Virus record (IMG/VR): IMGVR_UViG_3300010429_000409
Location: 1-64,000 of that record
Source: a virus
Taxonomy: Duplodnaviria; Caudoviricetes
Length of the DNA stretch: 64,000 nt
Strand: one strand, 5' to 3'
Shown piece after piece: positions 38,008 to 60,562 of the stretch. The translations under genes were made by a program, and so were the position numbers. The stretch's first letter is position 1. Each line of letters starts with the position of its first letter. Below the pieces are notes generated by a model. The model saw only the letters and a program-made list of their open reading frames with translations, searched no databases and was not told the DNA's origin.

Positions 38008-38229
38008 TCAGATCACACCTTTCCAAAAATCTTTTTCCATTTTCTCTTTGAATCCATGCTCTCCACCCGGAGGCCCCATGGAGGCGCCGCATTCAGGGCA
38101 CTTGAGTTGATTGCAAGGGTTGCCACGTGGATGTTCAACAATTTGTCCACACTTTGGGCACTCGCATGTCGCTTTTCCGCCTTGCTGCTCAGCCCCTCCG
38201 CCTTGGCCTTGTTCCTTCTTGATTTCCAC
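38008..38229 (-). CDS. small Cys/Zn-finger protein with scaffold-like C-terminal tail
   Basis: GAGGAG RBS 7 nt before the GTG at 38229; CECPKCG...HPRGNPC...CPECG; ends KDFWKGVI. Confidence 0.7.
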   Translation of the reverse strand: MEIKKEQGQGGGAEQQGGKATCECPKCGQIVEHPRGNPCNQLKCPECGASMGPPGGEHGFKEKMEKDFWKGVI

Positions 38230-38240
38230 TTTATCACTCC

Positions 38241-38588
38241 TCAATCCAATGGGCACGGAATCATGATTGGAAGAGTCGGCAATGCCGGAATCACAGGCAA
38301 CGCCGGAGGCATTGGGATGGGCAAGGCCAACGGTGGCAAGGGTGGCAATGGCATCCCTGGAAGCATCATGGGGATGGGCGGCAACGCCGGAATCGCTGGC
38401 AGCACCGGGATGGCCGGTGGCATCGGGATGGGAAGTGCCAAGGGTGGCAACGGTGGCAATGGCATCCCTGGGAATGGAGGGATGGGTGGGACTGGCAGCA
38501 CGGGCAGCACCGGCAGCACAGGAATGGCAGGAGGCACCGGAATAGGCAGCGCAAGCGGAGGCAACGGTGGTGTCAGGCACTTGCTCAT
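38241..38588 (-). CDS. proline-rich repeat protein
   Basis: ATGA-coupled to the spike gene; three PPLPPLALPIP/PLPPLALPIP repeats with varied third codon positions; one Cys near each end. Confidence 0.65.
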   Translation of the reverse strand: MSKCLTPPLPPLALPIPVPPAIPVLPVLPVLPVPPIPPFPGMPLPPLPPLALPIPMPPAIPVLPAIPALPPIPMMLPGMPLPPLPPLALPIPMPPALPVIPALPTLPIMIPCPLD

Positions 38589-39460
38589 TCCAAAAACACC
38601 TTCTGGCTCAGGATCTGTGCTGTTGGGATTGGAGTGCCTGCGGTCGGAGGTCCGCTTGGCCCGGTTCCGGTCGGATGAATGTGGCCGTCATGCAGCATCA
38701 CCATCTTGTTCCCAAGCACAGCCGGTTCCACCTCAGAGGCCAGGATCACTTTCCCGCCTTCCACCTTGGCTGTCTTGCAGCTGATGACCACATTGCTCTG
38801 CCCCAGCACCTGGATCAACCCATCCTTCATCTCGATGATGCCGCCGCTCTTGTCAATCATCTTCAGCGAGGTATCATCAGCGCTGATGACGTTCCCGTTG
38901 GCCTCCATCAGCGTGAAGCACTTGTTTTTGGCATCCAAGGACAGCACTGTGCCCAACATGTTCGCCAACGACACAGAGCCCTCGTTGTCAAAGGCGATGA
39001 ATGACCACTTGTCCTCACCCTCAGCGGTTTTCTTGTGCCAGCTCAAACGGACAGTTTCTTGCCCCTCGGTGTCATCAAACATCAGCATGTGCCCCATAGG
39101 GGTCATGAACCCGCGCCGCTTCCCGTAGTTGGTTTTGAGGTCATCAGGAATCGGCCGTGGCGCTGGTGTGGATTCATCTGTTCCACCCCACCAACGCTTC
39201 CCTCGCCAGTTGATGACCGGGTTGAACACTGCCGATTCCATGAAGCTGACATCCCGGTCGGATGACGTCACAATCTCGATTTCCACAGCCTCATCGACAT
39301 CTGGCACCAAGAAGAATCCCCACTCAAACACAGGCTCAATCCAATGGCTGATTGGCTTCTTGTCAGTCCCAGTCCAATCGGGGCAGACCACCTTGATGCG
39401 GCCACGTTGCTCTGGGTCCTGGTTGTCCACAACCCTGGCGTTGTACCTCTGCGTGCCCAT
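38585..39460 (-). CDS. baseplate central spike (gpV/gp5-like)
   Basis: OB fold VVDNQDPEQRGRIKV...P.V.E.V.I; T.MGH.L.FDD beta-helix; C-terminal HIH metal-binding tip. Confidence 0.88.
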   Translation of the reverse strand: MGTQRYNARVVDNQDPEQRGRIKVVCPDWTGTDKKPISHWIEPVFEWGFFLVPDVDEAVEIEIVTSSDRDVSFMESAVFNPVINWRGKRWWGGTDESTPAPRPIPDDLKTNYGKRRGFMTPMGHMLMFDDTEGQETVRLSWHKKTAEGEDKWSFIAFDNEGSVSLANMLGTVLSLDAKNKCFTLMEANGNVISADDTSLKMIDKSGGIIEMKDGLIQVLGQSNVVISCKTAKVEGGKVILASEVEPAVLGNKMVMLHDGHIHPTGTGPSGPPTAGTPIPTAQILSQKVFLE

Positions 39461-40659
39461 CACACAACCTTCCTGGCAGAAAAGTCGCAGGTGTAACCGG
39501 CCTCCGAACCGAACAGATGGCGCACACGGCTGAAATACCACTTGCCATCGTATGGCGGACCAAGCCCTTCAATGTCATGCTCTTGGCGTGACATCAGATT
39601 CTCGATGCCAATGACCACCCCATTCCCGGTCATGAAGTTTTCCCGGTTCCGGGCAAACCATGACTTGGCCCAGCGTTTGATCTTGGCCATGCTGTTCATG
39701 TTTCCAGCAGCTGAGAAGGCAAACGAGAAATCGCCCACGTACAATTTCACAGCTTCAGCTGAGGTGAACTGCTTCACATCTTCCTTTGGGTCACCAGCAT
39801 ACAACGGGTCCTCAGCTTGCGGGGAATCATCCACCTCGATGGTGTCCTCACCAAGAGTGCCCCACCTGATTCCCTCTGATGTCTGGTAGTATCCCAACGC
39901 CTGGACTCTGAGCTTGGTGAACTTCTCCGTGAAATTCATCTCAGGCTCGAATCGCATCAGGGTGCTCAATTCCTTGGCCCCATATTTGAACTTGTAGCGT
40001 TTGACCTGATTCTTGAGGATGTTGGCTGGGTCCTTGAAGTGCAGGGTCCACACGCCTTTGACATCAGCATCCACCCACATGTAGAACCCTGTCAGGTTGG
40101 ACAAACCACGCAGATACTCAGCCGCTGTCATCCCGGCTGGCCAATCTAGGTTGCCCACCTCATCAAGGTCGATGGGGTCAACATCCGTCTGCAGCCCAAG
40201 GTCAGAACCGATCTTGGCCACAGCATCCCCGATGGTGATGTCACCAAAAGTTGTCAGGATCTTTTTCTTCTGGCCCTTGGCCTTTTCAACTGTCCCTTCC
40301 TCATCAGGGTCCGGCTGCTTGTGAGCAAACACCCAGTCTTTTGAATAGCCCATGATCTCCAGGGATGGCACGCCATCCTCCGGGAAATTGATCTTGGGCC
40401 GCACAATCACCACCCGGCCGATGTGGGACAGCTTCTGCCCCCAACCCAGCCACAACGACACCTCGTTGTATGGTTGAAAGATTTTGGATGAAGAAAGCAC
40501 CATGTCCGGATTGGACACCACAATCTTCATCACATCAGCGATTGAATCGCTGCTCTCATACTCGATTGATTGGATGAAGTCAGACACATTGGCAGTAACA
40601 TCCTGCCCTTCCACATGGACCGCAAACCCAGCTGCCACGTTGTCAGGGAATTCAGCCAT
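39460..40659 (-). CDS. baseplate hub / late control D-like protein
   Basis: V.LWLGW, YL..L....GF and G.WY...V.H....GYT.F pattern; directly before the spike. Confidence 0.8.
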   Translation of the reverse strand: MAEFPDNVAAGFAVHVEGQDVTANVSDFIQSIEYESSDSIADVMKIVVSNPDMVLSSSKIFQPYNEVSLWLGWGQKLSHIGRVVIVRPKINFPEDGVPSLEIMGYSKDWVFAHKQPDPDEEGTVEKAKGQKKKILTTFGDITIGDAVAKIGSDLGLQTDVDPIDLDEVGNLDWPAGMTAAEYLRGLSNLTGFYMWVDADVKGVWTLHFKDPANILKNQVKRYKFKYGAKELSTLMRFEPEMNFTEKFTKLRVQALGYYQTSEGIRWGTLGEDTIEVDDSPQAEDPLYAGDPKEDVKQFTSAEAVKLYVGDFSFAFSAAGNMNSMAKIKRWAKSWFARNRENFMTGNGVVIGIENLMSRQEHDIEGLGPPYDGKWYFSRVRHLFGSEAGYTCDFSARKVV

Positions 40660-40662
40660 CAG

Positions 40663-41430
40663 CTACCCCAACACCACATGCGATAGGAAGCTGCGATTGC
40701 GCTTGTCGAACATGTCCAGCCGGAGCCTCCGCTGCGGTGTGTCCTTGGGGGTGTATCCATTCCCCAACTGGATGCTCTTCTGCTCCACCACCTCAGTCCT
40801 CAGCGCCCCGATGGAAGGCAGCTTGATGACATCGCCCGTGATCAGATTGGGCATCGATGGGTTGCGCTTCCGGATGATGTCACCCATGAGCGGGTCACCG
40901 TATTCACGGTGGCAAATCAGCTCATAGTAGTCACCGAATTTGGCGTGGTGATACCTGGACTCACCGGGCGCCACTGTCTCCAGCGACCAGGGGACAAACT
41001 CCTTGAGGGTGACTTCAAACGACACCTCGTGGAGTGAACCATCACCCCTTGGCTCACCGTATGCGATGTTGCTGATGGACTCGATGAAACACTTGCGCAG
41101 CCGGAGGTGCGAGTCACCAACCCAGAACGCCAAGATGGGTGGCCGCTTGAGGTCCGGGTCCATCTTGGCCCATGACACCAGCAGATCCAACTTTTTGAGC
41201 ACGGTGTCAAAAATGGTCTCAGCAAAGAATCGCCCCCGGAATGAGACCACCTCCGCATTGCCTCTGATGAACTGATGGATGGGATTGGGCCTGGTTGGGG
41301 TGGAAGCCTCCGCCCAGGATGCAGTGACTGTCCTGGTCACGTCCTCGGCCGGGAATTGTCCGCTCAATTCCTCGCCAGTGATTTCATAGTCCGCCAGCAC
41401 CCAAGTTTTCAGCGGATTGCCCATGGCCAC
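40663..41430 (-). CDS. tail tube initiator with LysM-like C-terminal domain
   Basis: RPP.L.F...C.IES...V.L.EF and GD.Y.LI....YGDP.....I...N......G..I.LP. Confidence 0.75.
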   Translation of the reverse strand: MAMGNPLKTWVLADYEITGEELSGQFPAEDVTRTVTASWAEASTPTRPNPIHQFIRGNAEVVSFRGRFFAETIFDTVLKKLDLLVSWAKMDPDLKRPPILAFWVGDSHLRLRKCFIESISNIAYGEPRGDGSLHEVSFEVTLKEFVPWSLETVAPGESRYHHAKFGDYYELICHREYGDPLMGDIIRKRNPSMPNLITGDVIKLPSIGALRTEVVEQKSIQLGNGYTPKDTPQRRLRLDMFDKRNRSFLSHVVLG

Positions 41431-41436
41431 CTCTCA

Positions 41437-43860: not shown

Positions 43861-43869
43861 TGCCCAGCC

Positions 43870-44870: not shown

Positions 44871-44950
44871 GGTTCACCTCCAGTTGGCACAACCTCCGGC
44901 TGCGCCTTGTTAGGTCCAACCGTTCAGGAAGGCTTGACACCTCCGCCAGG

Positions 44951-45388: not shown

Positions 45389-45422
45389 GGTATCACCTCG
45401 CCCTTTCCCTTGTCAGCGTTGG

Positions 45423-47702
45423 TCACGCCACCGACTCAAAGATGCCCATCTTGCCGATCATGATGTTGAACCGCTCCACGGTGTCGGCCAGACGCAGGCT
45501 GATCTTGGCGTTCATGTCGCCAGCCGCCCGAGTGGCGTCGGTGTTGATCTCGCTGTCCACCTTGATGATGGCAGCATCCTCGAACGTCTTGCCACGGATG
45601 GCCCGCTTGCGCCACTCGGGCAGGAAGAAATCCTTGAGCGAGGTGACAGCCTTCTTGTCGGTGATGGGGTCATTCAACTGGAAGATGATCCAGTCAAAGT
45701 TTTCCTGGAGCACGTGCTCATAGTAGCTCATCAACTCCCGCTGGTGCTTGAACTTCCAGTTGGAGTCCACCCACAGGGTCCGATCACCCCAGATGATGAA
45801 GTTGCCCTTGACTTTCTTCACCACGTTGATGCCCAGCGGGTTCAGGTATTCCTCGTTGAGGATGGCATCCCCGGTCGGCAGCTTCAACACCTTGGGCAGG
45901 GTGGCAGTGATGCCTGCCTCGGCCATGTGGTAGCCCAGGTTGTCCTGAGCCATCCGCGCCTCCCGGCCGTGGATCTGGCCGGTGAGGGTGACCAGCTTGA
46001 GCTTGCCGGTGGTGCTGGCCTCGGGGTCAGCCACATAGCCATAGGACGGGAACGCCACCACAGCGAAGTCATTGCGCCCCAGGGTGTCGTTGATGTAGGC
46101 GTCCGCATCCGCCTCCGTCACCTTGTTGTCGGGCACCTCGTACCTGTACTGGTGGTTTTTGCCCTCAGCATAGGCAGCGCCCGCCTTCTGGACAGCGGTG
46201 GAGGTCACACCCGGGGTGGCAAACTTGATCAGCCCCATGTTCTTGCCAGCGATGCGGTTGAACGGGCTGTTGGACGTGTCCCAGGCCTGGCTGTTGTAGT
46301 CGCTGTCCAAGATGCTGGCATGGCCATCCCGGCCTCCGGCCATCTCCAGCGGGGCAACCACCATGAACTGATCATCGGCAGCCGCCACGCTGGTCATGTC
46401 GGAACCATCCGCCACGGTGATGGTCTTGTGGTCGTTGTCCACGATGCGATAGAAGGTGCGTGCCGAATTGGCCTTGTCGGGGTACACCACGCCATCGATC
46501 AGAGAATCCGGGGTGAGTGGCTTGTACACCAGCTTCATCACATCCCCGGCCTCCAACACGGTGGTGCCGTTGGTGATGGTAAACGGAGGGGTCCACTTGT
46601 TGTTGGGAGCGAACAGCGTGCCCACGGTGACCTCGCCCAGGGCACCGTACTTGTCCGACACAGCATCACCCAAGGTGGGCGCGGTCATGGTGATGGTGAT
46701 GATCTGCTCATCATGGTTGTCGGTGGTGGTGCCCAGCGCCACGGTCGGATCGGCATCCCCGGTCGTCACGCTGAACTCGTGGATGACAGGCGTCAGCACG
46801 GTGGCGGTGACCGTTCCGATCTTGCCCCACACATTGGCCGGGCGAACATCGGCCGCATGGGCGCCAGTCCAGAGGTCCACAGCCTCCACCTCATCGTTGT
46901 TGCCATCGTTGTTGATGACGTTCACCCAGTACCTGGGATCAGTCGGGTTGGTGGACAGGTTGGGCCACTTGTTCGCCAACTCGCCGTTGACGTACACGTA
47001 CAACCCAAACTCCGTGGTGGGCTTGTCCTCGCCGTCCCGCACCTCATAGGACAGCGCCTTGTCGCCGTTCTCCAGGTACAGATAGAACCGGAGATTGGTG
47101 GGATCGGCCGCAGCCGTCCAATCATCCTTCATGGTGGCATCGGCCGCCACGGTGATGACTCCGGCAACGGTGTTGCTCACCACCTCATACCGCTTGTTGG
47201 ACACGGCATCCAACTCCACCCAACCGCCCTTCAGCTCATCCTTCTTGAGGGTGAGGCCCGTGGTGAGGGTGACGTTGGTGATGTCGCCCGAGGCAGACAC
47301 ATCGCCCGTCCGCTTCTGCGCCGCGCCGCCCCACCTGCCGCCGTTCTTGGCCTTGAGGGTGCCCATGGGCGTCTTGATGATCTTGCGGCAGTACAGGGTG
47401 GCCTGGGCCTGCAGCTCATCCCCATCGGTGACTCGCACCAGGAAGATTCCGCCTGCGCCAAGGGCGCCATCATAGAAGTCGATGGCGGCATCAGGCACCT
47501 GGGACTCGGGGATGTATCCGCCGCACTTCTTGATGAAGGCGCTCTTGGAAGAGCACTGGATCAACTCCCCAACAGGCCCACGCTCCAGCATGCCAGCATA
47601 GCCAACCCAACCAAGCGCACCTGGCGTGATGGGCTTGTCACCTTCCAGCTCCGTGACGCTCACACCAGCCCCGCGCACTGGTCCATATCTCCGCTGTGCC
47701 AT
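45423..47702 (-). CDS. contractile tail sheath protein
   Basis: GVSVTE..G...I, ERGPV, LNPLGINVV...IWGDRTL...WKF...REL and F..ND C-terminal sheath motifs. Confidence 0.95.
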   Translation of the reverse strand: MAQRRYGPVRGAGVSVTELEGDKPITPGALGWVGYAGMLERGPVGELIQCSSKSAFIKKCGGYIPESQVPDAAIDFYDGALGAGGIFLVRVTDGDELQAQATLYCRKIIKTPMGTLKAKNGGRWGGAAQKRTGDVSASGDITNVTLTTGLTLKKDELKGGWVELDAVSNKRYEVVSNTVAGVITVAADATMKDDWTAAADPTNLRFYLYLENGDKALSYEVRDGEDKPTTEFGLYVYVNGELANKWPNLSTNPTDPRYWVNVINNDGNNDEVEAVDLWTGAHAADVRPANVWGKIGTVTATVLTPVIHEFSVTTGDADPTVALGTTTDNHDEQIITITMTAPTLGDAVSDKYGALGEVTVGTLFAPNNKWTPPFTITNGTTVLEAGDVMKLVYKPLTPDSLIDGVVYPDKANSARTFYRIVDNDHKTITVADGSDMTSVAAADDQFMVVAPLEMAGGRDGHASILDSDYNSQAWDTSNSPFNRIAGKNMGLIKFATPGVTSTAVQKAGAAYAEGKNHQYRYEVPDNKVTEADADAYINDTLGRNDFAVVAFPSYGYVADPEASTTGKLKLVTLTGQIHGREARMAQDNLGYHMAEAGITATLPKVLKLPTGDAILNEEYLNPLGINVVKKVKGNFIIWGDRTLWVDSNWKFKHQRELMSYYEHVLQENFDWIIFQLNDPITDKKAVTSLKDFFLPEWRKRAIRGKTFEDAAIIKVDSEINTDATRAAGDMNAKISLRLADTVERFNIMIGKMGIFESVA

Positions 47703-49561: not shown

Positions 49562-49965
49562 GCCCTCCCCTGCCTGGAAGGCTCCATGTCTCTGAAGTGC
49601 GCTTTCAGAAGGCTGGGACCGTCTTGATCTGGGTAGTGTCCACACCATTCAATCTTGTGAACATACACATCCGTCAGGACATGCCCCATTTGGATGAACC
49701 GATCATCCAATTGGATTGTCACGCTTGCGGCATCCAAATCAACTTTCCTGAACAGGATGTAGCCAGTTGACCTGACAACGATGCCGGCAAGGTCAGCTTC
49801 CATCCCGAGGTCCTGCGACCAATTGGGCTGTCCAACAACAGTGACCACTGTGTTCCTGGTGACCTTCTGGACAGGTTCACGGGTGTCATCATCCATGACG
49901 GTTTCGGTCTTGTTGATCTGTTCGATCTTGACCGCAACCGGGTGTATGAGGCGAGGCAGGACCAT
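49558..49965 (-). CDS. head closure protein
   Basis: 135 aa beta-rich ORF following the adaptor; call is positional. Confidence 0.55.
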   Translation of the reverse strand: MVLPRLIHPVAVKIEQINKTETVMDDDTREPVQKVTRNTVVTVVGQPNWSQDLGMEADLAGIVVRSTGYILFRKVDLDAASVTIQLDDRFIQMGHVLTDVYVHKIEWCGHYPDQDGPSLLKAHFRDMEPSRQGRA

Positions 49966-51047
49966 CAGTCATAGCTCCAATTGGCCGGAGTCGCCAACCC
50001 AATCGGTGCCCTGTACATCCTGATGATGTCCAGAACCTCGGGGTCATCTATGGCCCCGCTGAAGGCGCCGCTCGTGAGCAGGCTGTCGCTGAACCCGTAG
50101 CCAATCGAATGGCTGTCTGTGGTCTCAGAGGTCACAGGCCCAGCAATCCAACCAGGTGCCGTGGGATCAAAAATCTTCTCAGTCACCTTGGTGCACACCA
50201 TCTTCAACAGCGCCCGCTTGATCAACTCCGGGGTGGAACCATCGGCCTCGGTGAATCCAAAGATGCCCTTGACTTCTTGGTTCTGGTATCCACGCCTGAA
50301 CTTCAGCCTCCCGCCAGTCATCGGTGCTGTGAAAATGCTCTGTTGATAGTCAGGCCCGATGAGCTTGATTCGAGGGTTCCGCCTGTCATCAGGGTATCCT
50401 CGGGAATTGTACACCTTGTAGTACGCTGTGTCCAACACCTCAGATGAACCATTCAGCTTCAGATGGTCAACCTGGATGATGGGCACACCAAAAAACAGCG
50501 TGTCGCTGTCATTCCCATCCGCCATGACTGTGATCTGCTTGGGGATGAACCACTGGCGGCACGCCCGTTCCAACAGCTGCTGGAACATGGTGATGTAGGA
50601 CAACACCTTGACATCGCTGGCCATGGCCTCGGTGATTCCTTCGGCCCGAACATCTGCCACCTGGATGTAGGTGTCAGCCGTTCCGCCTCCGGACTCCACC
50701 AAAATCTCAACATCCTCTTCCCCAAGCTGGTAGGGTGCCGCGCTGGAAATCTTCCAGCGCCACTTCACACGATGCGTTCCGATGGGCTCTGCAACGCCAG
50801 GGGTCCACCCCTTTGCTGCCGCGTTGTCATATGCATAGTATGCACCCACACTGAAGTGCCCGACACCATCCGTGACATCTTCCCACTCATCCGGTGTGGC
50901 AGGGAAAACTTGGGTGCCCGGCAACCCTCCCGTGATGTCCCAGATTTGGAACTCAACCTTGAAGGCATCCGTCAGGACTCCGTTGACGGTGATGAACCAA
51001 TTGATGATGGACGGGGTGTTTTCCTGTCCACGTGCTAGTGCTGGCAT
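49965..51047 (-). CDS. head-tail adaptor protein with N-terminal extra domain
   Basis: YIQVADVRAEG...LERAC.QWF, DGN.SD.L, FG.TE...P.LI.RA, V.SE.TD.HS and II.MYR. Confidence 0.7.
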   Translation of the reverse strand: MPALARGQENTPSIINWFITVNGVLTDAFKVEFQIWDITGGLPGTQVFPATPDEWEDVTDGVGHFSVGAYYAYDNAAAKGWTPGVAEPIGTHRVKWRWKISSAAPYQLGEEDVEILVESGGGTADTYIQVADVRAEGITEAMASDVKVLSYITMFQQLLERACRQWFIPKQITVMADGNDSDTLFFGVPIIQVDHLKLNGSSEVLDTAYYKVYNSRGYPDDRRNPRIKLIGPDYQQSIFTAPMTGGRLKFRRGYQNQEVKGIFGFTEADGSTPELIKRALLKMVCTKVTEKIFDPTAPGWIAGPVTSETTDSHSIGYGFSDSLLTSGAFSGAIDDPEVLDIIRMYRAPIGLATPANWSYD

Positions 51048-51097: not shown

Positions 51098-51484
51098 CTA
51101 CAGGATGCCGCCCCAAAAACCCTTCTTCACCTCGGCCTTGACCTTGGGAACATACACCGTCCTACGCTCCACCTCGGTGGGGTCGCCCTTGAAGGTGTAG
51201 GCTCCGGTGCCCGTGTCGCGCTTGAACTGCAACTCGTACACCACAGGCTCCGGATAGGGCGAGTCATCATCCATGGGGCCACGGACGTTCCGCATCACCT
51301 CCACCATGATCTTGTCGGTGAACACCTGGGCCGGATAGGCCATGTCCTTGTCCTTGCTGAACAGCCCTTTCTCAGCCAGGTGGCTGAGGCAAGGCTCTTT
51401 CAGGCTCTTGACGAACCCATCCAGGTCCTCACCTTCCATGAACGGCAGCGCCGCCTTCTCAACCATCACTTGGGTCTGTGCCAT
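51098..51484 (-). CDS. hypothetical head protein with scaffold-like C-terminal tail
   Basis: AGGAGG RBS; Y.L.F.RD.....F.G.P.EVER...Y motif; ends KKGFWGGIL. Confidence 0.7.
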   Translation of the reverse strand: MAQTQVMVEKAALPFMEGEDLDGFVKSLKEPCLSHLAEKGLFSKDKDMAYPAQVFTDKIMVEVMRNVRGPMDDDSPYPEPVVYELQFKRDTGTGAYTFKGDPTEVERRTVYVPKVKAEVKKGFWGGIL

Positions 51485-51507
51485 GACTTCCTCCTGTGAA
51501 CAAGATT

Positions 51508-51810
51508 TTAGGGCCATCTGCCTTCCGGGTCGAATGGACTGCCCTTCACGTCATCCAGCCCGATGATTCCTGCCTTGTCACGATAGAACGCCTGGATGAA
51601 GTCCCCCACCTTCGGGGCCACAAACATCTCAATGGCGTTGGGGGCAACTTCCGCCCAACCCAACCGTTCATCTGCCGCATCTTGGACCTGGCCATTGATC
51701 ATCACCTTGACGCTTCCGGGCTCGTACTGCGTTGGCGTTTGGAACGTCCGGTTGTGCCCATCGACACTCCCAGCAAGCTGAACCAGTCTGCTTTCCTTGT
51801 ACAGACCCAT
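51508..51810 (-). CDS. small beta-rich structural protein
   Basis: G.VDG.N.TF...Y.PGS.KV..NG....I....AP..GD.I...Y. Confidence 0.65.
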   Translation of the reverse strand: MGLYKESRLVQLAGSVDGHNRTFQTPTQYEPGSVKVMINGQVQDAADERLGWAEVAPNAIEMFVAPKVGDFIQAFYRDKAGIIGLDDVKGSPFDPEGRWP

Positions 51811-52310
51811 CAGCCCACCTTCTCAAACAGCCCATCGCTCATCTCACAGAACTTGCGCAGCCCTTCAGGCGTCACATTCTCAGGGTCCCAATCGCTGCCA
51901 TCCAGATACGGCTGGACAAACCTTGCCATCAACTCAGAACACACCTGGGCCTTGGTCGATGACAAGGGCTTTTTCACTTTCATCTTGAGCCAACGCCATG
52001 CGATGATGAACCACGCTGTCCAAAACAGGTCCACGTAGTCATAGGCGTTGCCAAAGTATTCCCGGATTGCTTCGCATCCCTTCTGCGGGTCTGCTTTCAG
52101 CCTGTATTCACAGACCACATTGTGCTTTGCCTTGTGGCTGGGGACCTTCCGAACGCCACCAATCGTTGCCTCTGCAACCCAGCGCCCGCCCCACAGCTTT
52201 GAATCATATTCCAGCATGGCATGGCTGACTGTCCCATTGGTCAGCCATCTGATGACCCGTCCAAACCAGGTCTTTGATGCCGTGAAAATGATTCGCACAT
52301 CCCTGGACAT
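51810..52310 (-). CDS. permuted papain-like NlpC/P60 hydrolase (YiiX/YebB, C92-like)
   Basis: I.W.T....SH, EA...GV, YD, CSEL and VTP.L; His precedes Cys as in the permuted family. Confidence 0.85.
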   Translation of the reverse strand: MSRDVRIIFTASKTWFGRVIRWLTNGTVSHAMLEYDSKLWGGRWVAEATIGGVRKVPSHKAKHNVVCEYRLKADPQKGCEAIREYFGNAYDYVDLFWTAWFIIAWRWLKMKVKKPLSSTKAQVCSELMARFVQPYLDGSDWDPENVTPEGLRKFCEMSDGLFEKVG

Positions 52311-53368
52311 CACGCAACTTCCTCGCTGTAGCTTGTACAATAGAAAGTGGCCGTGCCATATTCACCTTCATATGGCACATCACCTTCCAACCACACCCTG
52401 ATTTCCAATCCAATGGATGATAACAACTCTTTGACCGTTGCGTACTTGAACGGGAAGGTGATGCGATCCTGTGCGAATCCTCGGGCGCCACCCATCGCAG
52501 GGATCAACGGATATGCCCCATTGGCTTCCTCGATGTAGTTGTCCAATGTTTTGTAAGTGGTTGGGGCTGCAACCGGAACCTTGTTGGGAGGGTCTGCCGG
52601 GTTGTATGCCCATGGTTGAAAGTGCGTGCTGGCCTTGAGCAGAATGTCCTTGCTGAACTGCACTTCGCTGTATTCCACCCACAGCCGCTTTCCCGCCTCC
52701 GGCCTGATGATGAACAGGCTTCCAGCCGCCCGGCTGTAACTGGCTGTCACTGTGCGTCCGGCAACAGAAGCAAAGAAAGTCACCCGGCCGGTCTTGTAGT
52801 CAATCTGGAACAATCCGCCTTCTGTGGCCCACGGTGCGCGCTCTGTCTTTACCACGCCATCCACCTTCACAACAGGCAGATAGCCAGCAGAGATCAAATC
52901 CTCACGATAGACCTTGCCGTGTTTCATGTCAATCCAATTTGGAAAGGCAGAAACAAACGTCAACCCATCACCGCTGTCCACCAGATTTTCATTCTCCACT
53001 CGAACAGACTGGGTGTACCATGTGGTTGGGTCGCACCAGTTGTGCGTTACCACGACCAGTCCAGAACCAGCCTTGCGAGGCTCATGGCTGACCCGGAGCC
53101 GCCCATCATCGTCCTTTTCGGGCTGCACTCCTTGGTAGCCTCGAATCAGATCAATGGCCTCTCCAGCAGCATAGTCTCGCACCCCATCATTGAGCTGGTA
53201 GTTGGCCTCTCCCTGCCCAAGCAAAAGCAATAGGGTCTCAGATGTGGCCAGCTCATAGTTCGCAAAGCACACTGAGAGATCTGCTTGGTCATTCGCTGGG
53301 ATCTCCACGGTGCGCCGCCCGCACGTCACCTCACAGGTTTCAGCCGTCTTGTTCTTCAAGATTCTCAT
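52310..53368 (-). CDS. hypothetical structural protein
   Basis: 352 aa beta-rich; IDYKTGRVTF...VTASY module. Confidence 0.65.
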   Translation of the reverse strand: MRILKNKTAETCEVTCGRRTVEIPANDQADLSVCFANYELATSETLLLLLGQGEANYQLNDGVRDYAAGEAIDLIRGYQGVQPEKDDDGRLRVSHEPRKAGSGLVVVTHNWCDPTTWYTQSVRVENENLVDSGDGLTFVSAFPNWIDMKHGKVYREDLISAGYLPVVKVDGVVKTERAPWATEGGLFQIDYKTGRVTFFASVAGRTVTASYSRAAGSLFIIRPEAGKRLWVEYSEVQFSKDILLKASTHFQPWAYNPADPPNKVPVAAPTTYKTLDNYIEEANGAYPLIPAMGGARGFAQDRITFPFKYATVKELLSSIGLEIRVWLEGDVPYEGEYGTATFYCTSYSEEVA

Positions 53369-55013: not shown

Positions 55014-55016
55014 TGA

Positions 55017-55535: not shown

Positions 55536-55595
55536 GGGTTCCTCCTTGCTTGAGCCTTCAATACAAGGCCAATCGCAGTTGGTTGTTCGTTCAGC

Positions 55596-57125
55596 TTACT
55601 GCGCCAGCACCACGCTGATGATCACATCTCCGGTCTTGACACCCTTGGCGAAGTCCACCATGATGTCGCCACTGGCCGGAGTGGTACCAGCATACACGTC
55701 GTTTTTGGTCGTGCCGTTGCCACCGTACAGCAGGCGCCCATTGAGGAACACCAGCTGCTCCACGGTTCCCGGGGTGTTCATGTCGATGGGATTGGCGCTG
55801 ATGTCCTGGATGGCCCCAGGGATGTTCACGCCTTGCCCGTAGTTGGAGCCCATGACGGACACCTTCAGCGACATGTCCGCCCCGCCGTGCTCGCCAGCGT
55901 ACTTGATGGCAGCAGCGATGGAGGCAAACGATTGGCCAAAGAGGTCCCCAACGGCCCCTGCGGTGGCATCATCGAGGGGCAGCGCCGTGTCCTGCCGGAC
56001 GGTGAGGAAGCTGACATCATCGGCAGCCACCAGCTCCAGGTCCGTGGAGGTGGCGTTCAGCTTCAGCGAAGCAGAATCCACCTGCCCGGCCGTCACGCCC
56101 ACGTTGATCAGCTGACCGGCCGAGTCCACCTTGATGCCATCAGCGAAGTCCACGTCACTGCTGTTCACGTCCAGCTTGTCCGTGTCCACCTTCAGCAGAT
56201 CGCCCGTGCTGTCGTTGCGAGTGACCGTGACCAGCGCAGAACCACCGGAGCCAGCCCTGAACACCCAGCTCTTGGTGTCGCTCAGGCGGATGTCCACGTC
56301 ATTCCCGTCCACGGTCATGAACTGGCCGCCATCGTATGCGGTGTCCAGCGACACCGTCACAGAGGCCAACGGGTCCAGGCTGTCGAGGTCGCCACGGAAT
56401 GCATCTTCCACGTGGTCATTCAGGCTGTCCCTGAAGGTGAAGGCCACCACGATGCTCTTGTTCTCGATGTCGGCCACGGGGCAGGCTTCCAGGTCATCGA
56501 AAGTGGCATTGGCCCGAACAAAGCTGATCTGGCCCTGGTCCGCTCCGCTGTCTGCGAAAGCATTGCCATCGGTGGCAGTGCTTCCAACCTGGAGCAGACC
56601 ATACACCGTCCGGCCGCTGGAGCTGATCTCTTCCCCCGTGGCGCCATCGAACAGCACCATCAGGTTCTTGGGCTTCAGCGGGTTGGAGCCGCTGATCTCG
56701 GTCAGGCTGTGGCTCCCGATGGCCCCAGCCAGCTGGGCCGTGGCTGCGCCCTTCTGGGCCAGGGCGATGGCGATGACCTTGTCGGGCTTCCCCGCTCCGG
56801 TCAGCGCCACCCAGTTCTGGGAGGCAGGCACGGACACATCGTTGATGTTCAGCCGGTACAGCAGGATGAGCTTGCCCTCCAGCGTTGCCCGGTTGTACAA
56901 CGCCTTCAAGCTGGCGTTGCCGCCATGGACATTGGCGATGTCATCGAACCAGTTGCCAGAATCGCCACCATGGATGATGCGCTTGAACTGGGACAATTCG
57001 CCCTTCAGGAAGTCCAAGCCGTCGATGGCCGATGACTCGATGGCCGCGATTGCCGCCGCATCCAGGGTGTCATCAGGGTTGTCGGTTTTCCGAACCTGCT
57101 CCAGCCTCAAAAGGGTGACTGACAT
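55596..57125 (-). CDS. probable abundant structural (decoration/fibre) protein
   Basis: 509 aa, A/D/G/T-rich; strong GC3 bias like the capsid and sheath genes; SLDTAYDGG and VFLNG.L motifs. Confidence 0.65.
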   Translation of the reverse strand: MSVTLLRLEQVRKTDNPDDTLDAAAIAAIESSAIDGLDFLKGELSQFKRIIHGGDSGNWFDDIANVHGGNASLKALYNRATLEGKLILLYRLNINDVSVPASQNWVALTGAGKPDKVIAIALAQKGAATAQLAGAIGSHSLTEISGSNPLKPKNLMVLFDGATGEEISSSGRTVYGLLQVGSTATDGNAFADSGADQGQISFVRANATFDDLEACPVADIENKSIVVAFTFRDSLNDHVEDAFRGDLDSLDPLASVTVSLDTAYDGGQFMTVDGNDVDIRLSDTKSWVFRAGSGGSALVTVTRNDSTGDLLKVDTDKLDVNSSDVDFADGIKVDSAGQLINVGVTAGQVDSASLKLNATSTDLELVAADDVSFLTVRQDTALPLDDATAGAVGDLFGQSFASIAAAIKYAGEHGGADMSLKVSVMGSNYGQGVNIPGAIQDISANPIDMNTPGTVEQLVFLNGRLLYGGNGTTKNDVYAGTTPASGDIMVDFAKGVKTGDVIISVVLAQ

Positions 57126-57140
57126 GTGTTCCTCCGTTCT

Positions 57141-57512
57141 TCAGTCATTTGTTCTGTCAAGCAAAGGATTGTACCTCTGCTTTCCCACCTTGCAGACCGC
57201 AAAACGCGCTGCCCTCTGGGCCAGGTGCACCATCAAGATGATCCTGGTTTCGTCGGCAACGCAGATCAATCTTTCCCCACCTTTGATCTTCCCATCTTCC
57301 GTTGGTTTGATGTACTCTGCCTGGAAGAATTGCTGGAGAAAACCTTGCGGCCTGGGCAGTGAGTATTGCACACCCTTCTGGGCAACAGTCAGCCCGGAAA
57401 TCTGCGCTTGAAATGCCGGGTCCTTGCAACACTCCAACCATGCCTTGGCCTCTTGCTCATCTTCCAAGTTGAACCGAAGGGTCATCCCATCTGCCTTGTG
57501 CACCTTCAACAT
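57141..57512 (-). CDS. hypothetical protein
   Basis: GAGGGG RBS before MLKVHK; in the operon. Confidence 0.6.
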   Translation of the reverse strand: MLKVHKADGMTLRFNLEDEQEAKAWLECCKDPAFQAQISGLTVAQKGVQYSLPRPQGFLQQFFQAEYIKPTEDGKIKGGERLICVADETRIILMVHLAQRAARFAVCKVGKQRYNPLLDRTND

Positions 57513-57572
57513 GTGGCCCCTCTTTGAGCAAGATGCCAAACAAGGTTGGCCTCAACGCGCCTCTTACTAGGC

Positions 57573-57953
57573 TCACGGTCCCTTGCGCCTGGTCCTGAAC
57601 CTGCCCAGCGTCTTGCGGGGAGGCTCTGGGGGTCTGTTGGGTGGCGTGTCCTCCATCGTGGAAGCCTCCTTCAGGTTCACACCAGCCACTTCGGGCTCCT
57701 TGGGCGCCTCGGGCGCGGGCTCCTTGGCAGCCACCTTCACTTGCTCCGATTCTACCCTGCTGATCACCACACGGCCAAGCAGATCACGCCGTTCCTTCCT
57801 GAAGGCTTCCCATTCTTCCTCCGTCAGCATCACTGTGGCCAACGGGTGGAAGTGGACCGAACCATTGCACGAACGGTCGGTCACGCCTTCAAAGCCCATC
57901 TGGAAGGGTCTGATGTCAGCTGGGAGTCGGATGGACACCCTGCCCATGGTCAC
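57573..57953 (-). CDS. hypothetical protein
   Basis: GTGA-coupled; Pro/Glu/Lys-rich tail. Confidence 0.6.
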   Translation of the reverse strand: MTMGRVSIRLPADIRPFQMGFEGVTDRSCNGSVHFHPLATVMLTEEEWEAFRKERRDLLGRVVISRVESEQVKVAAKEPAPEAPKEPEVAGVNLKEASTMEDTPPNRPPEPPRKTLGRFRTRRKGP

Positions 57954-58339
57954 ACCCCTTTCTTCTTGGGGGGTGCCTTCTTGGGCGCCTGAGCAGCAGG
58001 CTTGGTCGGAGCAGCAGGCTTTGCCACACCCTTGGCTTCCTGTGTGGGCTTCCCGGCCGGGATGGCAGGGGCATGCTCCTGCTTGAGCTTGGGCTGAACC
58101 TTCGGAGCCTCTGCCTTGGGCTCCACCTCGGGCTTGTCAGGCGCCTTGGGCGCCTCCACCTTGGGCACCGGAGCCTTCTGCTCAGGTTCCGGAAGCAGCT
58201 CAACCCTGAACATCGGATTGCCCTTGAACTGGGCAATCTCTTCCGCGCTGGACAGCAACACAGGCTGCCCCTTCTTGAACGTCCTGCCGTTCACGGCCAA
58301 CGACAAACACCCCAACAGTTCCACTTTCGCGCTTGCCAT
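57950..58339 (-). CDS. hypothetical capsid-associated protein
   Basis: Small N-domain plus P/A/K/E-rich tail; GGAGG RBS; first gene after the major capsid protein. Confidence 0.65.
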   Translation of the reverse strand: MASAKVELLGCLSLAVNGRTFKKGQPVLLSSAEEIAQFKGNPMFRVELLPEPEQKAPVPKVEAPKAPDKPEVEPKAEAPKVQPKLKQEHAPAIPAGKPTQEAKGVAKPAAPTKPAAQAPKKAPPKKKGV

Positions 58340-58376
58340 CTTGAGCCTCCAATCAATGGCATTTGGACTTGGAATC

Positions 58377-58419
58377 GAGAAATGGCTGCGAGGCCCATCA
58401 GAACCTCGCAGCCGTTCTC
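58377..58419 (-). terminator. hairpin terminator/stabiliser after the major capsid gene
   Basis: GGCTGCGAGG (58384-58393) pairs with CCTCGCAGCC (58404-58413), with extendable flanks, followed by ATTTCT on the minus strand. Confidence 0.65.
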
Positions 58420-58439
58420 ATTCCTTCATCGCCACGTCA

Positions 58440-59636
58440 TCAGCTGATGCTGGTGCCGATGTTCTTGCCCTTCACCACCGCATCCAGCTCCTCGAAGTTG
58501 AAGTCCAGCTTCACGGTGATGGCGTACTGGTTGACACCCTTGAAGATGTCCCGATCCTTCTCGATGCGGATGTCACGCCCGATGCCCACGATGTAGTTCT
58601 GCTGGTGGGTGAGCAGGATCTGCGGGTTGGAGGTGTAGGTCACCTTCACGGTGGCCCCATCCCCGATGGTCGAGCCGCTGCGCCGCTTGATCTTGCCGGT
58701 GGCGGCGGTCAGCTCATAGTCCGTGGATGCGCTGTAGGCGTCCAGCGGGGTGCCACTCAGGGTGGCCGGGGTGACCACCACGTTGCTCACCGGAGCGTAC
58801 AGCAGCTGGGTGTCGGTGGTGCCGTTCAGCACCACGTGCTCGGTGACCGGCGGCATCAGGTCCAGCAGGGGCAACTCCACCGGGGTGATGCCGAAGGGCT
58901 TGTGCATGGAACCACCAGCCGCCTCATCGCCCAGCACGGTGGTCCGGCTGGCCAGCTTCTCCAGATACAGCTGGTACACATCGCTGGAGAGATAGAACCG
59001 GAGATCACCCTTGTTGCGCCGGAACTTGGTGGGCAGCGCCCGCAGCATGGCGCTGAAGGTGCTCAGGCTGATGTTGGCCGCCAGCTGGTCCACCACGTGC
59101 GCGCCGTCCGCCAGCTTCATCCAGCCATTGGTCAGGGCCAGGTAGGTGTCCTTGACGTACTTGGTGGCGCTGCCGCCGTCCACCAGGTCGCCCTCCAGGA
59201 TGGCCGGGCCGAGGGTGTTGCCGTTGAGGCCCAGCTCCTCCATGTCGTTGGCCAGCTGCGTGGCCATCATCTTGATGATGTGGTCCTCCACGCTGGCACC
59301 CTCGATGTTCACGTCCATGAAGGTGTCGCTGATCTCGAACGGCACCATGACCTCCCTGGGCTGCAGGGTGATCTTGCTGGTGCTGATGCCCCTGCGCACG
59401 GAGGGGGCAGACGCCTCCGCCTTGGGCACCGCCACGCGCCGCCCGATGCCGATCTTGTCGATCTCCAGCTGCTCGTTGCGGAAGCGCACGATGCGGGCGT
59501 TGTTCTTCAGCACGGACTCGTCCACCACGTAGTCGATGAACTTGTCGGACTGGGCCGGGTTCAGCTTGCCTGCGGCCGCCAGCGCGTCCGTGGCGATGAT
59601 GGCCTTCTGGATCAGTTCCTGATTGGGAATGCTCAT
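58440..59636 (-). CDS. major capsid protein (HK97 fold, XkdG-like)
   Basis: G.LNP.QSDKFIDYV, IDKIG.G.R, NIEG...EDHI...A...ANDME.L..NG and DF.FEE.DAV; AGGAGG RBS before MSIPNQ. Confidence 0.93.
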   Translation of the reverse strand: MSIPNQELIQKAIIATDALAAAGKLNPAQSDKFIDYVVDESVLKNNARIVRFRNEQLEIDKIGIGRRVAVPKAEASAPSVRRGISTSKITLQPREVMVPFEISDTFMDVNIEGASVEDHIIKMMATQLANDMEELGLNGNTLGPAILEGDLVDGGSATKYVKDTYLALTNGWMKLADGAHVVDQLAANISLSTFSAMLRALPTKFRRNKGDLRFYLSSDVYQLYLEKLASRTTVLGDEAAGGSMHKPFGITPVELPLLDLMPPVTEHVVLNGTTDTQLLYAPVSNVVVTPATLSGTPLDAYSASTDYELTAATGKIKRRSGSTIGDGATVKVTYTSNPQILLTHQQNYIVGIGRDIRIEKDRDIFKGVNQYAITVKLDFNFEELDAVVKGKNIGTSIS

Positions 59637-59695
59637 CTGTTCCTCCTGTGGGTTTCTTTCGTCCCTGGGTTCTTTGGTCACGCCATCTGACACAG

Positions 59696-60562
59696 CTAGA
59701 TCACGCCGTGCCAAAAACTCTTCTGCACGTTCTTGTTCTTGTCGTCGGTGCCGCCACTCCCCTCGATGGACTGGGAAGGCACACGCGCCTTCTCAATCAC
59801 CTCCAACCGCCCCATCAGCGCGTCCAGATTCTTCTGGACAGCGGTGATCTGCTGCCGCAGCTCATCGGCCGAGGCATCGACCTTCGGAGCCTCCACCTTG
59901 GGCTCCGCCTCGGGCGCGGGCTTGGTCACATCCTCGGCCTTGGTCACGGACACAGGGGCAGGCCCGGCCGGAGGCTGGATGCCACTGGACAGGTCGGGCT
60001 TGAAGGCGCCGCCCATCTTGTCGTGAACTTCCTTCAGCACGTTGGTATCCACCTCGCCCAGCAGGTCCGCCAGGCTCAGAATCACATCCTTGAGCGCCTG
60101 GGTCCGGCTGCCGGTGAACACCTTGGCCTTGCGCAACTCCGCAAGAGTGCCGTTCACCTTGACATCGCCCTCCGGGGTGACGCTCATGGTGTAGGCATCC
60201 GTCTTGGCAACGGGCTCCGCCTCGGGCTTGGGAGCCTCGGGCGCGGGCTCCGGCTTGGCGTCGGGCACAGGCGCCTCGGGCTTGGGAGCCTCGGGCGCGG
60301 GCTCCGGCTTGGCCTCCACCTCGGGCTTGGTCACATCACCTTCCGGCTTGCCAGCCTCGGGCTCCGCCTTCTTCACAGCCTCTGGCGCCGTGGCCGCGCT
60401 CTTCACTTCCTTGGGAGCTGCCATGGGTTCCTCCTCCATTCGTTTGACGATCAAAAACTTGCGTTGAATTGCCGGTTTGTCAACCAGCGACACCTCATTG
60501 ACCTCCAGGTCAACGATGCGTCTCACACCCTTCATTTCCTCTTCACTCTTTTTTTGGCTCAT
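59696..60562 (-). CDS. capsid scaffold protein carrying an N-terminal protease-type EVSLVDKPA segment
   Basis: LEVNEVSLVDKPA..RKFLIVK, P/E/A/K-rich linker, KAKVFTG.R, coiled coil, ends KSFWHGVI; directly before the major capsid protein. Confidence 0.75.
   Translation of the reverse strand: MSQKKSEEEMKGVRRIVDLEVNEVSLVDKPAIQRKFLIVKRMEEEPMAAPKEVKSAATAPEAVKKAEPEAGKPEGDVTKPEVEAKPEPAPEAPKPEAPVPDAKPEPAPEAPKPEAEPVAKTDAYTMSVTPEGDVKVNGTLAELRKAKVFTGSRTQALKDVILSLADLLGEVDTNVLKEVHDKMGGAFKPDLSSGIQPPAGPAPVSVTKAEDVTKPAPEAEPKVEAPKVDASADELRQQITAVQKNLDALMGRLEVIEKARVPSQSIEGSGGTDDKNKNVQKSFWHGVI
60218..60313. repeat. exact 42-bp direct repeat in the scaffold (AKPEPAPEAPKPEA x2)
   Basis: 60218-60259 is identical to 60272-60313. 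Confidence 0.9.

What the first reader, a model, noticed from the sequence alone, without database searches (positions are those of the whole stretch)
38008..59722. Three unrelated proteins end in the same tag, K-x-F-W-x-G-[VI]-[IL]-stop: candidate capsid cargo-loading signal
Seen: the scaffold ends VQKSFWHGVI (59696-59722), the 128-aa protein ends VKKGFWGGIL (51098-51124), and the 73-aa Zn-finger protein ends MEKDFWKGVI (38008-38034). The genes lie 8-22 kb apart, share nothing else, and differ at DNA level, so the motif is conserved as peptide. Established: scaffold C-termini are coat-binding elements (P22, herpesviruses), and T4 internal proteins and encapsulin cargos use short targeting peptides. 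Inference: this phage reuses its scaffold's coat-binding peptide as a portable address label to load accessory proteins into the prohead. A preceding [VM]-x-K site could let the protease clip it off.
Basis: partly seen in the sequence, partly recalled or inferred. Interest (0 to 1): 0.82.

Follow-up and report, generated by a model that had tools for sequence, protein, structure and literature searches.

The report
Scaffold-tail address tag on phage proteins
An uncultured 94.5-kb sludge phage and a large group of its relatives put the last eight to ten residues of their head-scaffold protein on several unrelated small proteins, most likely as a portable label that loads them into the empty phage head, although loading itself has not been measured.

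Summary
Three minus-strand genes in the window end K-x-F-W-x-G-[VI]-[IL]-stop: the scaffold, a 128-aa protein and a 73-aa zinc-ribbon protein. A fourth, 89-aa gene 1.4 kb beyond the window ends the same way (chance P about 1e-9 to 1e-22).

The tail is the conserved end of the scaffold in 13 of 14 relatives found through the capsid protein. All three non-scaffold families keep it in their phage homologues. In the 128-aa family, 115 of 149 representatives less than 50% identical to each other end in it, whatever the linker or inserted domain.

The 89-aa domain is elsewhere the N-terminal domain of prohead proteases of four families, so it normally enters proheads by covalent fusion. One relative carries the tail on a Dam-type methyltransferase, a domain that other relatives fuse to the head protease.

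The best reading is therefore a scaffold-derived C-terminal capsid-targeting tag (confidence about 0.7). The receptor, probably the capsid protein N-arm, any proteolytic removal and the cargo functions are not shown. No cultured phage carries it.

It is a new variant of known kinds: the T4 and P1 capsid-targeting sequences, the 80alpha scaffold/SaPI1 CpmB shared tail, and encapsulin cargo peptides. This scan noted a comparable scaffold-tail mimic in a T4-like phage on other DNA.

The parts
59696..60562 (-). Scaffolding protein, 288 aa. Its N-terminus carries the strand EVSLVDKPA, which in fused homologues belongs to the protease. The body is Pro/Ala/Glu/Lys-rich and is followed by a coiled-coil region. 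The tag VQKSFWHGVI lies at 59699-59728, with the stop at 59696-59698.
   Evidence: It lies between the XkdF protease and the capsid gene. phrog_3017 'head maturation protease' matches residues 136-287 to profile positions 259-400 of 402, E 1.8e-11. Orthologues in 13 of 14 loci found through the capsid protein end K-x-[FILM]-W-x-G-[VIL]-[LIV], and 40 unique tagged scaffolds were found in all.
51098..51484 (-). 128-aa tagged protein (p128). It has a helix plus four-strand sheet domain of about 110 residues, then the tag VKKGFWGGIL (51101-51130). It lies directly upstream of the head-tail adaptor gene.
   Evidence: Sequence. Pairwise homology to tagged proteins of other viral contigs gives E 1e-12 and 2e-8. 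A profile search finds 320 clusters at 50% identity; of the best 149, 115 end in the tag core. In the AF2 model, residues 121-128 have pLDDT below 50.
38008..38229 (-). 73-aa zinc-ribbon protein (CxCPKCG...CPECG) ending in the tag MEKDFWKGVI (38011-38040). The gene lies in the baseplate region.
   Evidence: Sequence. The Zn-ribbon hits are sub-threshold. Three homologues at 64-65% identity all end K-G-F-W-[ND]-G-[VI]-[LIV], one with one extra residue. In relative L026 the gene sits after the sheath gene instead.
58440..59636 (-). Major capsid protein, the presumed receptor of the tag. The ORF opens at 59714, but relatives start at the Met at 59636.
   Evidence: It is 30% identical to annotated major capsid proteins of Streptomyces phages, E 1e-34, and 50-68% identical to relatives. 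The N-arm NxEL[IV]xKA...GKLNPAQSDKFIDYV is the best-conserved stretch of the protein.
60605..61222 (-). XkdF-type prohead protease, 205 aa, without the tag. It ends GYSIGGMATLV, and its TAA stop is in frame with the scaffold ORF.
   Evidence: PF14550, E 1e-31; sequence. The same split into a protease ORF and a strand-plus-scaffold ORF is seen in PAK_P1 and RcDurkin. In Yaboi the two are fused.
61195..63935 (-). Mu F-like minor head protein (61195-62232) and portal protein (62229-63935), as context of the head module.
   Evidence: PF04233 E 3.7e-7 and PF04860 E 4.5e-19.
49965..51047 (-). Head-tail adaptor gene. It marks the conserved gene slot upstream of which tagged genes sit in this phage and in its relatives.
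   Evidence: phrog_442, E 1.4e-11. Homologues in L010, L015 and L026 are preceded by a tagged gene of a different family.

Best explanation
The last 8-10 residues, [VT]-x-K-x-[FL]-W-x-G-[VI]-[LI]-COOH, form a short, flexible C-terminal peptide. Through it the scaffolding protein of this phage lineage most likely docks on the inner face of the assembling procapsid, probably on the conserved N-arm of the major capsid protein.

The same peptide, hung on a variable linker at the extreme C-terminus of other proteins, would make them co-assemble into the procapsid next to the scaffold. In this phage those proteins are p128, the 89-aa BRX-like protein and the 73-aa zinc ribbon. Relatives add a ChaB-like protein and a Dam-type methyltransferase.

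What is shown:
- The motif and its significance.
- Its conservation at the scaffold terminus.
- Its conservation on three other protein families through divergence, linker change, gene relocation, and domain fusion and fission.
- Its absence from cellular homologues.
- The covalent fusion of the same passenger domains (BRX-like domain, D12 methyltransferase) to prohead proteases in other phages.

What is inferred:
- That the peptide binds the capsid protein.
- That the tagged proteins are packaged.
- Whether they are later cut, degraded, retained or ejected into the host.
For: 1. Four ORFs of 129 end in the motif; P is 1e-9 to 1e-22.

2. In loci found through the capsid protein, that is without regard to the tag, 13 of 14 scaffolds end [FILM]-W-x-G-[VIL]-[LIV]. 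Pattern scans added about 26 more unique scaffolds.

3. The 89-aa family: 14 of 19 homologues at 45-78% identity keep the terminal tail (two more keep it 2-3 residues from the end) behind a linker of variable length and sequence, and W85 is nearly invariant.

4. The p128 family: the N-domain occurs alone, with a short linker, fused to the 89-aa domain, or fused to an 'LPDxxFA...LRNALARL' domain. The tag is always at the very end. Of 149 representatives less than 50% identical to each other, 115 end in the core motif and 13 more have it within 4 residues of the end, at protein lengths of 124-258 aa.

5. In this phage p128 and the 89-aa domain are separate genes and each has its own tag, whereas L065 and L082 have one fused gene with one tag. 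The tag therefore acts per polypeptide.

6. Tag-less homologues of the 89-aa domain fall into two groups. Some are small cellular genes. The others are the N-terminal domain of prohead proteases of four families: S78 protease-capsid fusions, ClpP-type, Mu gpI-type and XkdF-type. Those proteins work inside proheads.

7. L015 has a 301-aa D12 methyltransferase ending KKSVSWKGII. A D12 methyltransferase domain is fused to the XkdF protease in L015 and L026.

8. The tagged genes move in the genome while the tag stays. The 89-aa gene is upstream of TerL here but upstream of the adaptor in L026. The slot upstream of the adaptor holds p128 here, a ChaB-like gene in L010 and the 89-aa gene in L026.

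9. AF2 models of both cargo proteins show a confident fold, with the tag residues at pLDDT below 50.

10. Precedent: the 80alpha scaffold and SaPI1 CpmB share a C-terminal helix-and-hook (RIIK motif) that binds the capsid protein N-arm (PMC5644958). The N-arm is the best-conserved part of this capsid protein.
Against: - There is no direct evidence: no virion or prohead proteomics, no binding data and no co-fold. The whole clade is uncultured.
- The receptor is not identified. Portal, protease, Mu F protein or the scaffold itself remain possible.
- Tag variants on scaffold and cargo of one genome do not clearly co-vary. L207 has scaffold SLWGGVI against p128 RLFAGVL. L015 has scaffold SLFSNIIPI against cargo SLWKGVLF and SVSWKGII.
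- In some relatives the scaffold motif is followed by 4-7 further residues (G007 ...NLWGGIFNQSL; Yaboi ...KWGGHFLSVSDISR). A free carboxyl end is therefore not always needed.
- p128 is a conserved core gene of the neck region. It may be an assembly factor rather than 'cargo'.
Confidence: 0.7

Rival explanations
1. The tail is a docking or recognition element for another prohead component, not for the capsid protein. Candidates are the portal, the Mu F-like protein, the XkdF protease (as a substrate-recruitment site) or the scaffold itself (co-oligomerisation). The tagged proteins would still end up in the prohead, but by a different contact.
For: p128 sits among the neck and adaptor genes in many genomes. 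The protease has no tag of its own. Scaffolds of other phages also contact portals (established knowledge, not tested here).
Against: In every scaffold whose contact has been mapped (P22, phi29, 80alpha), the extreme C-terminus binds the coat protein (PMC5644958). The capsid protein N-arm is the most conserved stretch across the clade. No feature of the portal or the protease was found to track the tag.
Confidence: 0.15
2. The tail is a degradation or turnover signal (a C-terminal degron). It would be read by a phage or host protease, so that the scaffold and some small proteins are removed on schedule without any role in targeting.
For: Short hydrophobic C-terminal tails can be degrons, as in the ssrA tag and Tsp substrates (established knowledge). 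A 176-aa crotonase/ClpP-like ORF lies two genes upstream of p128 (phrog_1128, E 1.8e-15).
Against: The crotonase-like gene has no detectable homologue in the tagged relatives L008, L010 and L015 and no Pfam match. A degron does not explain why the same passenger domains are fused to prohead proteases elsewhere. It also does not explain why a methyltransferase would carry it.
Confidence: 0.07
3. The tail binds a host factor, for example a chaperone, the membrane or a PDZ-type domain. It would then be shared because these proteins need the same host partner for folding or localisation.
For: The motif is short, hydrophobic and C-terminal, as PDZ ligands and some membrane-targeting tails are (inference only).
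Against: The host is unknown. The tail is conserved across phages from many environments, and so probably from many hosts. Its best-conserved carrier is the scaffold, whose known partner is the coat protein.
Confidence: 0.05

Closest known systems
80alpha scaffolding protein and SaPI1 CpmB: shared C-terminal 'helix-and-hook' with the RIIK motif (PMC5644958)
   Same: A very short motif at the extreme C-terminus of the scaffold binds the capsid protein N-arm. A second, otherwise unrelated small protein carries the same tail and enters the procapsid through it.
   Different: There the second protein belongs to a satellite that hijacks the phage and changes capsid size. Here the phage's own genome carries three more tagged genes of different families. 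The motif differs (F-W-x-G-V-I against R-I-I-K), and binding has not been seen structurally.
T4 capsid targeting sequence on IPI-III and Alt, and the P1 DarB N-terminal packaging signal (PMC9024508)
   Same: A short portable peptide, shared by unrelated proteins, directs them into the prohead. The cargo includes anti-restriction enzymes; compare the tagged Dam-type methyltransferase in L015.
   Different: Those signals are N-terminal. In T4 the signal is removed by the S77 protease gp21 and is not the scaffold's own coat-binding end. Here the signal is C-terminal and identical to the scaffold tail, the protease is XkdF-type, and cleavage is unknown.
HK97 prohead protease C-terminal capsid-targeting region (Duda, Oh and Hendrix 2013; listed in the references of PMC9024508; content recalled from memory, paper not held)
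   Same: A C-terminal segment of a head-assembly protein suffices for encapsidation and can carry passengers.
   Different: In HK97 it docks on the delta (scaffold) domain of the capsid protein and is known only on the protease. No natural family of other proteins with that tail is described.
Encapsulin cargo-loading peptides
   Same: A C-terminal peptide of about 10 residues behind a flexible linker, on unrelated cargo proteins, binds the inner face of an HK97-fold shell. The architecture is the same: domain, variable linker, terminal tag.
   Different: This is a true tailed phage with terminase, portal, sheath and a separate scaffold. The motifs are unrelated, and no homology is claimed.

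Membership tests
Scaffold C-terminal coat-binding tail shared with a second protein (80alpha SP / SaPI1 CpmB type) | The motif lies at the extreme C-terminus of the scaffolding protein and is conserved among scaffold orthologues. | tested here: met
   13 of 14 scaffolds in loci found through the capsid protein, and 40 unique scaffolds in all.
Scaffold C-terminal coat-binding tail shared with a second protein (80alpha SP / SaPI1 CpmB type) | The same tail is present on otherwise unrelated proteins. | tested here: met
   The p128, 89-aa, Zn-ribbon, ChaB-like and D12 methyltransferase families carry it.
Scaffold C-terminal coat-binding tail shared with a second protein (80alpha SP / SaPI1 CpmB type) | The tail physically contacts the capsid protein N-arm in procapsids. 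| not testable with these tools
   No multimer fold and no structure were available. The only observation is that the N-arm is the best-conserved part of the capsid protein.
T4-type capsid targeting sequence (CTS) | N-terminal leader of about 10 residues. | tested here: not met
   The tag is at the extreme C-terminus in all carriers.
T4-type capsid targeting sequence (CTS) | Removed by a T4 gp21-type (S77) prohead protease at a consensus site. | tested here: not met
   The head protease is XkdF-type, PF14550. No cleavage site could be defined, and the V-x-K before the tag is only part of the conserved motif.
T4-type capsid targeting sequence (CTS) | Shared by unrelated proteins that are packaged in the head. 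| tested here: inconclusive
   The sharing is shown. Packaging is only inferred, from fusion of the same domains to prohead proteases.
Encapsulin cargo-loading peptide | A C-terminal peptide behind a variable linker on unrelated cargo proteins. | tested here: met
   the tag residues have low pLDDT.
Encapsulin cargo-loading peptide | The shell is an encapsulin, with no portal, terminase or tail. | tested here: not met
   Portal, Mu F protein, a 494-aa ORF taken as TerL (39% identical to its counterpart in relative L010, whose homologue in L207 carries Terminase_6C) and a tail sheath are present.
XkdF-type protease plus scaffold head module | A Peptidase_S78_2 domain, followed by a scaffold region that begins with the conserved E-[VI]-S-L-V-D-x-P-A strand. 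| tested here: met
   PF14550, E 1e-31. The strand is at the scaffold N-terminus. The same layout is split in PAK_P1 and RcDurkin and fused in Yaboi.

The most novel reading that the evidence does not exclude
A large, wholly uncultured lineage of XkdF-protease myophages uses its scaffold's C-terminal peptide as a general address code for the capsid interior. The lineage includes at least 320 p128 clusters at 50% identity. Any protein that acquires the roughly 10-residue tail is loaded into the prohead. A conserved kit (p128, the BRX-like domain, the zinc ribbon) plus variable enzymes such as a Dam methyltransferase would thus be packaged and probably delivered to the host with the DNA. This would be a natural phage counterpart of encapsulin cargo loading, and a ready-made C-terminal packaging tag for engineering.
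Probability: 0.5. Interest if true: 0.8.

Novelty: new variant of a known kind. Interest (0 to 1): 0.64.

Why it matters
How tailed phages other than T4, P1 and the jumbo phages load proteins into their heads is mostly unknown. A C-terminal tag that is literally the scaffold's own docking peptide gives a simple and testable rule.

It predicts which unannotated proteins are head-internal in a large uncultured phage group. It links three known phenomena in one mechanism: scaffold-coat docking, satellite mimicry of scaffold tails, and encapsulin-style cargo peptides.

It also explains why certain domains are fused to prohead proteases in many other phages. These are the 'PFPNEHAAR' BRX-like domain and the D12 methyltransferases. 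Finally, a 10-residue C-terminal tag would be a convenient tool for packing proteins into phage capsids.

Tried and rejected
- **Chance:** rejected.
- **Recent duplication of a DNA cassette:** rejected. Third codon positions differ, and 17-23 of 30 nt are shared.
- **The 89-aa gene as small terminase, because it precedes TerL:** rejected. Its homologue in L026 sits upstream of the adaptor, and the domain is an N-terminal module of prohead proteases elsewhere.
- **The tail as a general property of XkdF-type phages:** rejected. PAK_P1, RcDurkin and HHTV-2 scaffolds end differently. Yaboi has only a sub-terminal KWGGHFL.
- **Degron for the neighbouring crotonase/ClpP-like ORF:** unlikely, because that gene is not found in tagged relatives.
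- **Co-variation of tag variants between the scaffold and cargo of one genome:** looked for as a test of a shared receptor and not found. This is inconclusive, and part of the sample was ascertained through the motif itself.
- **Function of the cargo from folds:**
  - p128 gives at best a cystatin/NTF2-like match, Z 7.3, rmsd 2.9 A over 77 residues. That is within the tool's stated background.
  - The 89-aa protein resembles a BRX domain (Foldseek E 0.08, TM 0.68 over the target; Pfam BRX below its cut-off).
  - Neither match gives a function.
- **Cultured relatives carrying the tag:** none by tblastn with the scaffold, its C-terminal half, p128 or a p128 representative.
- **p128 as an orphan:** the word-indexed search found only the protein itself. 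The full HMM search then overturned this.
- **One pattern hit in G006 (22831):** this is an out-of-frame chance match.
- **A co-fold of tag and capsid protein:** could not be run, because the fold tool takes single chains only.


Full report
**Setting**

The window is the first 64 kb of a 94,539-bp viral record with direct terminal repeats, rated complete. All genes read on the minus strand.

The head module reads as follows on that strand:
- a 494-aa ORF taken as TerL (63946-65430; its counterpart in relative L207 carries Terminase_6C)
- portal (62229-63935; PF04860)
- Mu F-like protein (61195-62232)
- XkdF-type protease (60605-61222; PF14550, E 1e-31)
- a 288-aa scaffold (59696-60562)
- the major capsid protein (58440-59636/59714), which is 30% identical to annotated capsid proteins of Streptomyces phages

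The tail sheath is at 45423-47702. No close cultured relative exists.

**Observation**

A six-frame scan of the whole genome finds one more, 1.4 kb beyond the window. It is an 89-aa protein (genome 65412-65681) that starts MPYPSEHAARQ and ends EVKKGFWEGVI. No other ORF ends that way.

With 129 called proteins, the chance expectation is 0.013 ORFs for W-x-G-phi-phi and 7e-6 for the strict motif. P(>=4) is 1e-9 and 1e-22 respectively. At the DNA level the last ten codons share 17-23 of 30 bases, and 4-8 of the ten third positions match. The peptide is conserved, not a DNA cassette.

**The tail belongs to the scaffold**

The 288-aa protein is a scaffold on three grounds:
- its position between protease and capsid gene
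- its match to the C-terminal (scaffold) part of protease-scaffold fusion families (phrog_3017, E 1.8e-11, up to profile position 400 of 402)
- its N-terminal strand EVSLVDKPA, which in the fused Yaboi protein follows the protease catalytic motif

Fourteen related loci were fetched through the capsid protein, so without regard to the tag. They are 50-68% identical to this capsid protein. Thirteen of their scaffolds end [FILM]-W-x-G-[VIL]-[LIV]-stop. Three DNA pattern scans of IMG/VR added further examples, giving 40 unique tagged scaffolds.

More distant relatives keep a similar motif a few residues from the end: G007 has ...NLWGGIFNQSL and Yaboi has ...KWGGHFLSVSDISR. Other XkdF phages (PAK_P1, RcDurkin, HHTV-2) have different ends.

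**The other carriers keep the tail**

*The 89-aa family.* Nineteen homologues were found. Fourteen, at 45-78% identity, end K-x-[FLM]-W-x-G-[VIL]-[LI] behind a linker that varies in length and sequence, and two more keep the motif two or three residues from the end.

*The Zn-ribbon family.* Three homologues at 64-65% identity are all tagged.

*The p128 family.*
- The word-indexed search made p128 look like an orphan.
- Tagged ORFs in other contigs proved homologous to it (E 1e-12).
- A profile search of 1.84 billion representatives found 320 clusters.
- Of the best 149, which are mutually less than 50% identical, 115 end [WF]-x-[GNSDE]-phi-phi-COOH and 13 more have the motif within four residues of the end.
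- The consensus is G-W-x-E-T-x-K-S-[FL]-W-x-G-V-L, at protein lengths from 124 to 258 aa.

*Architecture.* The p128 N-domain occurs in four forms (alignment A2):
- alone (this phage, L112)
- with a short linker (L039, L045, L079)
- fused to the 89-aa domain (L065, L082)
- fused to an 'LPDxxFA...LRNALARL' domain (L034, L103)

The tag is always last. In this phage, where the p128 and 89-aa domains are separate genes, each has its own tag.

*Further carriers in relatives.* These are a 70-aa ChaB-like protein in L008 and L010 and a 301-aa D12 adenine methyltransferase in L015 (PF02086, E 6e-17).

**Why the tail most likely means 'into the prohead'**

1. *The 89-aa domain is normally a prohead passenger.* Some homologues that lack the tail are small genes in cellular neighbourhoods, next to thermosome, CBS and Usp genes. 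The other tail-less homologues form the N-terminal domain of prohead proteases of four different families:
   - S78 protease-capsid fusions (L164, L165, L168, L170)
   - a ClpP-type head protease (L166)
   - a Mu gpI-type protease (L167)
   - an XkdF-type protein (L172)

   So the same domain is normally carried into proheads by covalent attachment. In this lineage it is free-standing and carries the scaffold tail instead.

2. *The methyltransferase follows the same pattern.* A D12 methyltransferase domain is fused to the XkdF protease in L015 and L026, and a separate one in L015 carries the tail.

3. *The genes move but the tail stays.* The 89-aa gene precedes TerL here but precedes the adaptor in L026. 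The Zn-ribbon gene follows the sheath gene in L026 but lies in the baseplate operon here. The slot upstream of the adaptor holds p128, a ChaB-like gene or the 89-aa gene in different phages.

4. *The tail looks like a flexible overhang.* AF2 models of the 89-aa protein (mean pLDDT 86) and of p128 (mean pLDDT 77) have the tag residues below pLDDT 50. A tail that orders only on binding would look like this.

5. *There is a precedent.* The last 16-21 residues of the 80alpha scaffold, and the same tail on SaPI1 CpmB, bind the capsid protein N-arm (PMC5644958). In this lineage the capsid protein N-arm is the best-conserved stretch of the protein, even against Yaboi.

**What is not shown**

- Binding, packaging, cleavage and ejection are all untested.
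- The receptor could be another prohead component.
- Tag variants do not visibly co-vary between the scaffold and cargo of one genome.
- The V-x-K before the tag is part of the conserved extended motif. Nothing indicates that it is a protease site.
- The cargo functions are unknown. p128 has a helix-on-sheet fold with cystatin/NTF2-like matches, Z 7.3 at best and within background. The 89-aa protein resembles a BRX domain, weakly.
- p128 is so widely conserved that it may be an assembly factor rather than an accessory cargo.

**Comparison with known systems and novelty**

The principle of capsid-targeting peptides is known from T4 and from P1 DarB (PMC9024508). Mimicry of a scaffold tail is known from CpmB. 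C-terminal cargo peptides on HK97-fold shells are known from encapsulins.

What is new here:
- a C-terminal tag identical to the scaffold's own end
- its presence on several of the phage's own proteins
- a large uncultured XkdF-protease lineage that carries it
- the complementary pattern of tail versus covalent fusion to the head protease

This scan has noted a comparable 'scaffold-tail mimic' in a T4-like phage on other DNA (e1-5702871; not tested here).

It is a new variant of a known kind, interest 0.64.

Noticed in passing
window 60540-61222 (protease/scaffold junction): The XkdF protease ORF stops right after GYSIGGMATLV. The conserved strand EVSLVDKPA, which in the fused Yaboi protein follows the protease core, sits at the N-terminus of the separate scaffold ORF. 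The two ORFs are in frame across a single TAA. PAK_P1 and RcDurkin show the same split, so it looks like a normal layout and not an error. The scaffold might tether the untagged protease through this strand.
   Followed up: partly
window 51810-52340 (-): A 176-aa ORF two genes upstream of p128 matches phrog_1128, 'enoyl-CoA hydratase/carnithine racemase-like' (E 1.8e-15), which has a crotonase/ClpP-like fold. It has no Pfam hit and no homologue in L008, L010 or L015. It may be a second protease or a moron.
   Followed up: partly
L026:1-973 and L015:3986-6343: In relatives the XkdF protease is the C-terminal domain of very large proteins (785-1101 aa). These also carry 2',5' RNA ligase-like (2H) and D12 methyltransferase domains. 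Enzymes therefore seem to ride into the head on the protease.
   Followed up: partly
L015:3032-4001: A 6-pyruvoyl-tetrahydropterin synthase (PF01242, E 4e-22) and a radical-SAM protein lie between the Mu F gene and the protease gene of a relative. They look like queuosine/archaeosine-type base-modification genes inside a head module.
   Followed up: no
P0025 / L087 (IMGVR_UViG_2740891978_000007, 23,323 bp): A tagged Zn-ribbon homologue is deposited as a protein of a Candidatus Thorarchaeota MAG. Cellular homologues of the 89-aa domain lie next to thermosome genes. The host range of the clade may include archaea, but the binning evidence is weak.
   Followed up: no
L034:2251-3039 and L103:2387-3274: A conserved 'INDLPD[AS][AS]FA.ILPGGKKD...LRNALARL' domain is inserted between the p128 domain and the tag in some phages. 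It has no Pfam match.
   Followed up: no
L207:10504-11016: The gene after the p128 homologue in this relative ends ...ARALFAGKVV. This is a tag-like tail with one extra residue and may be a further carrier.
   Followed up: no
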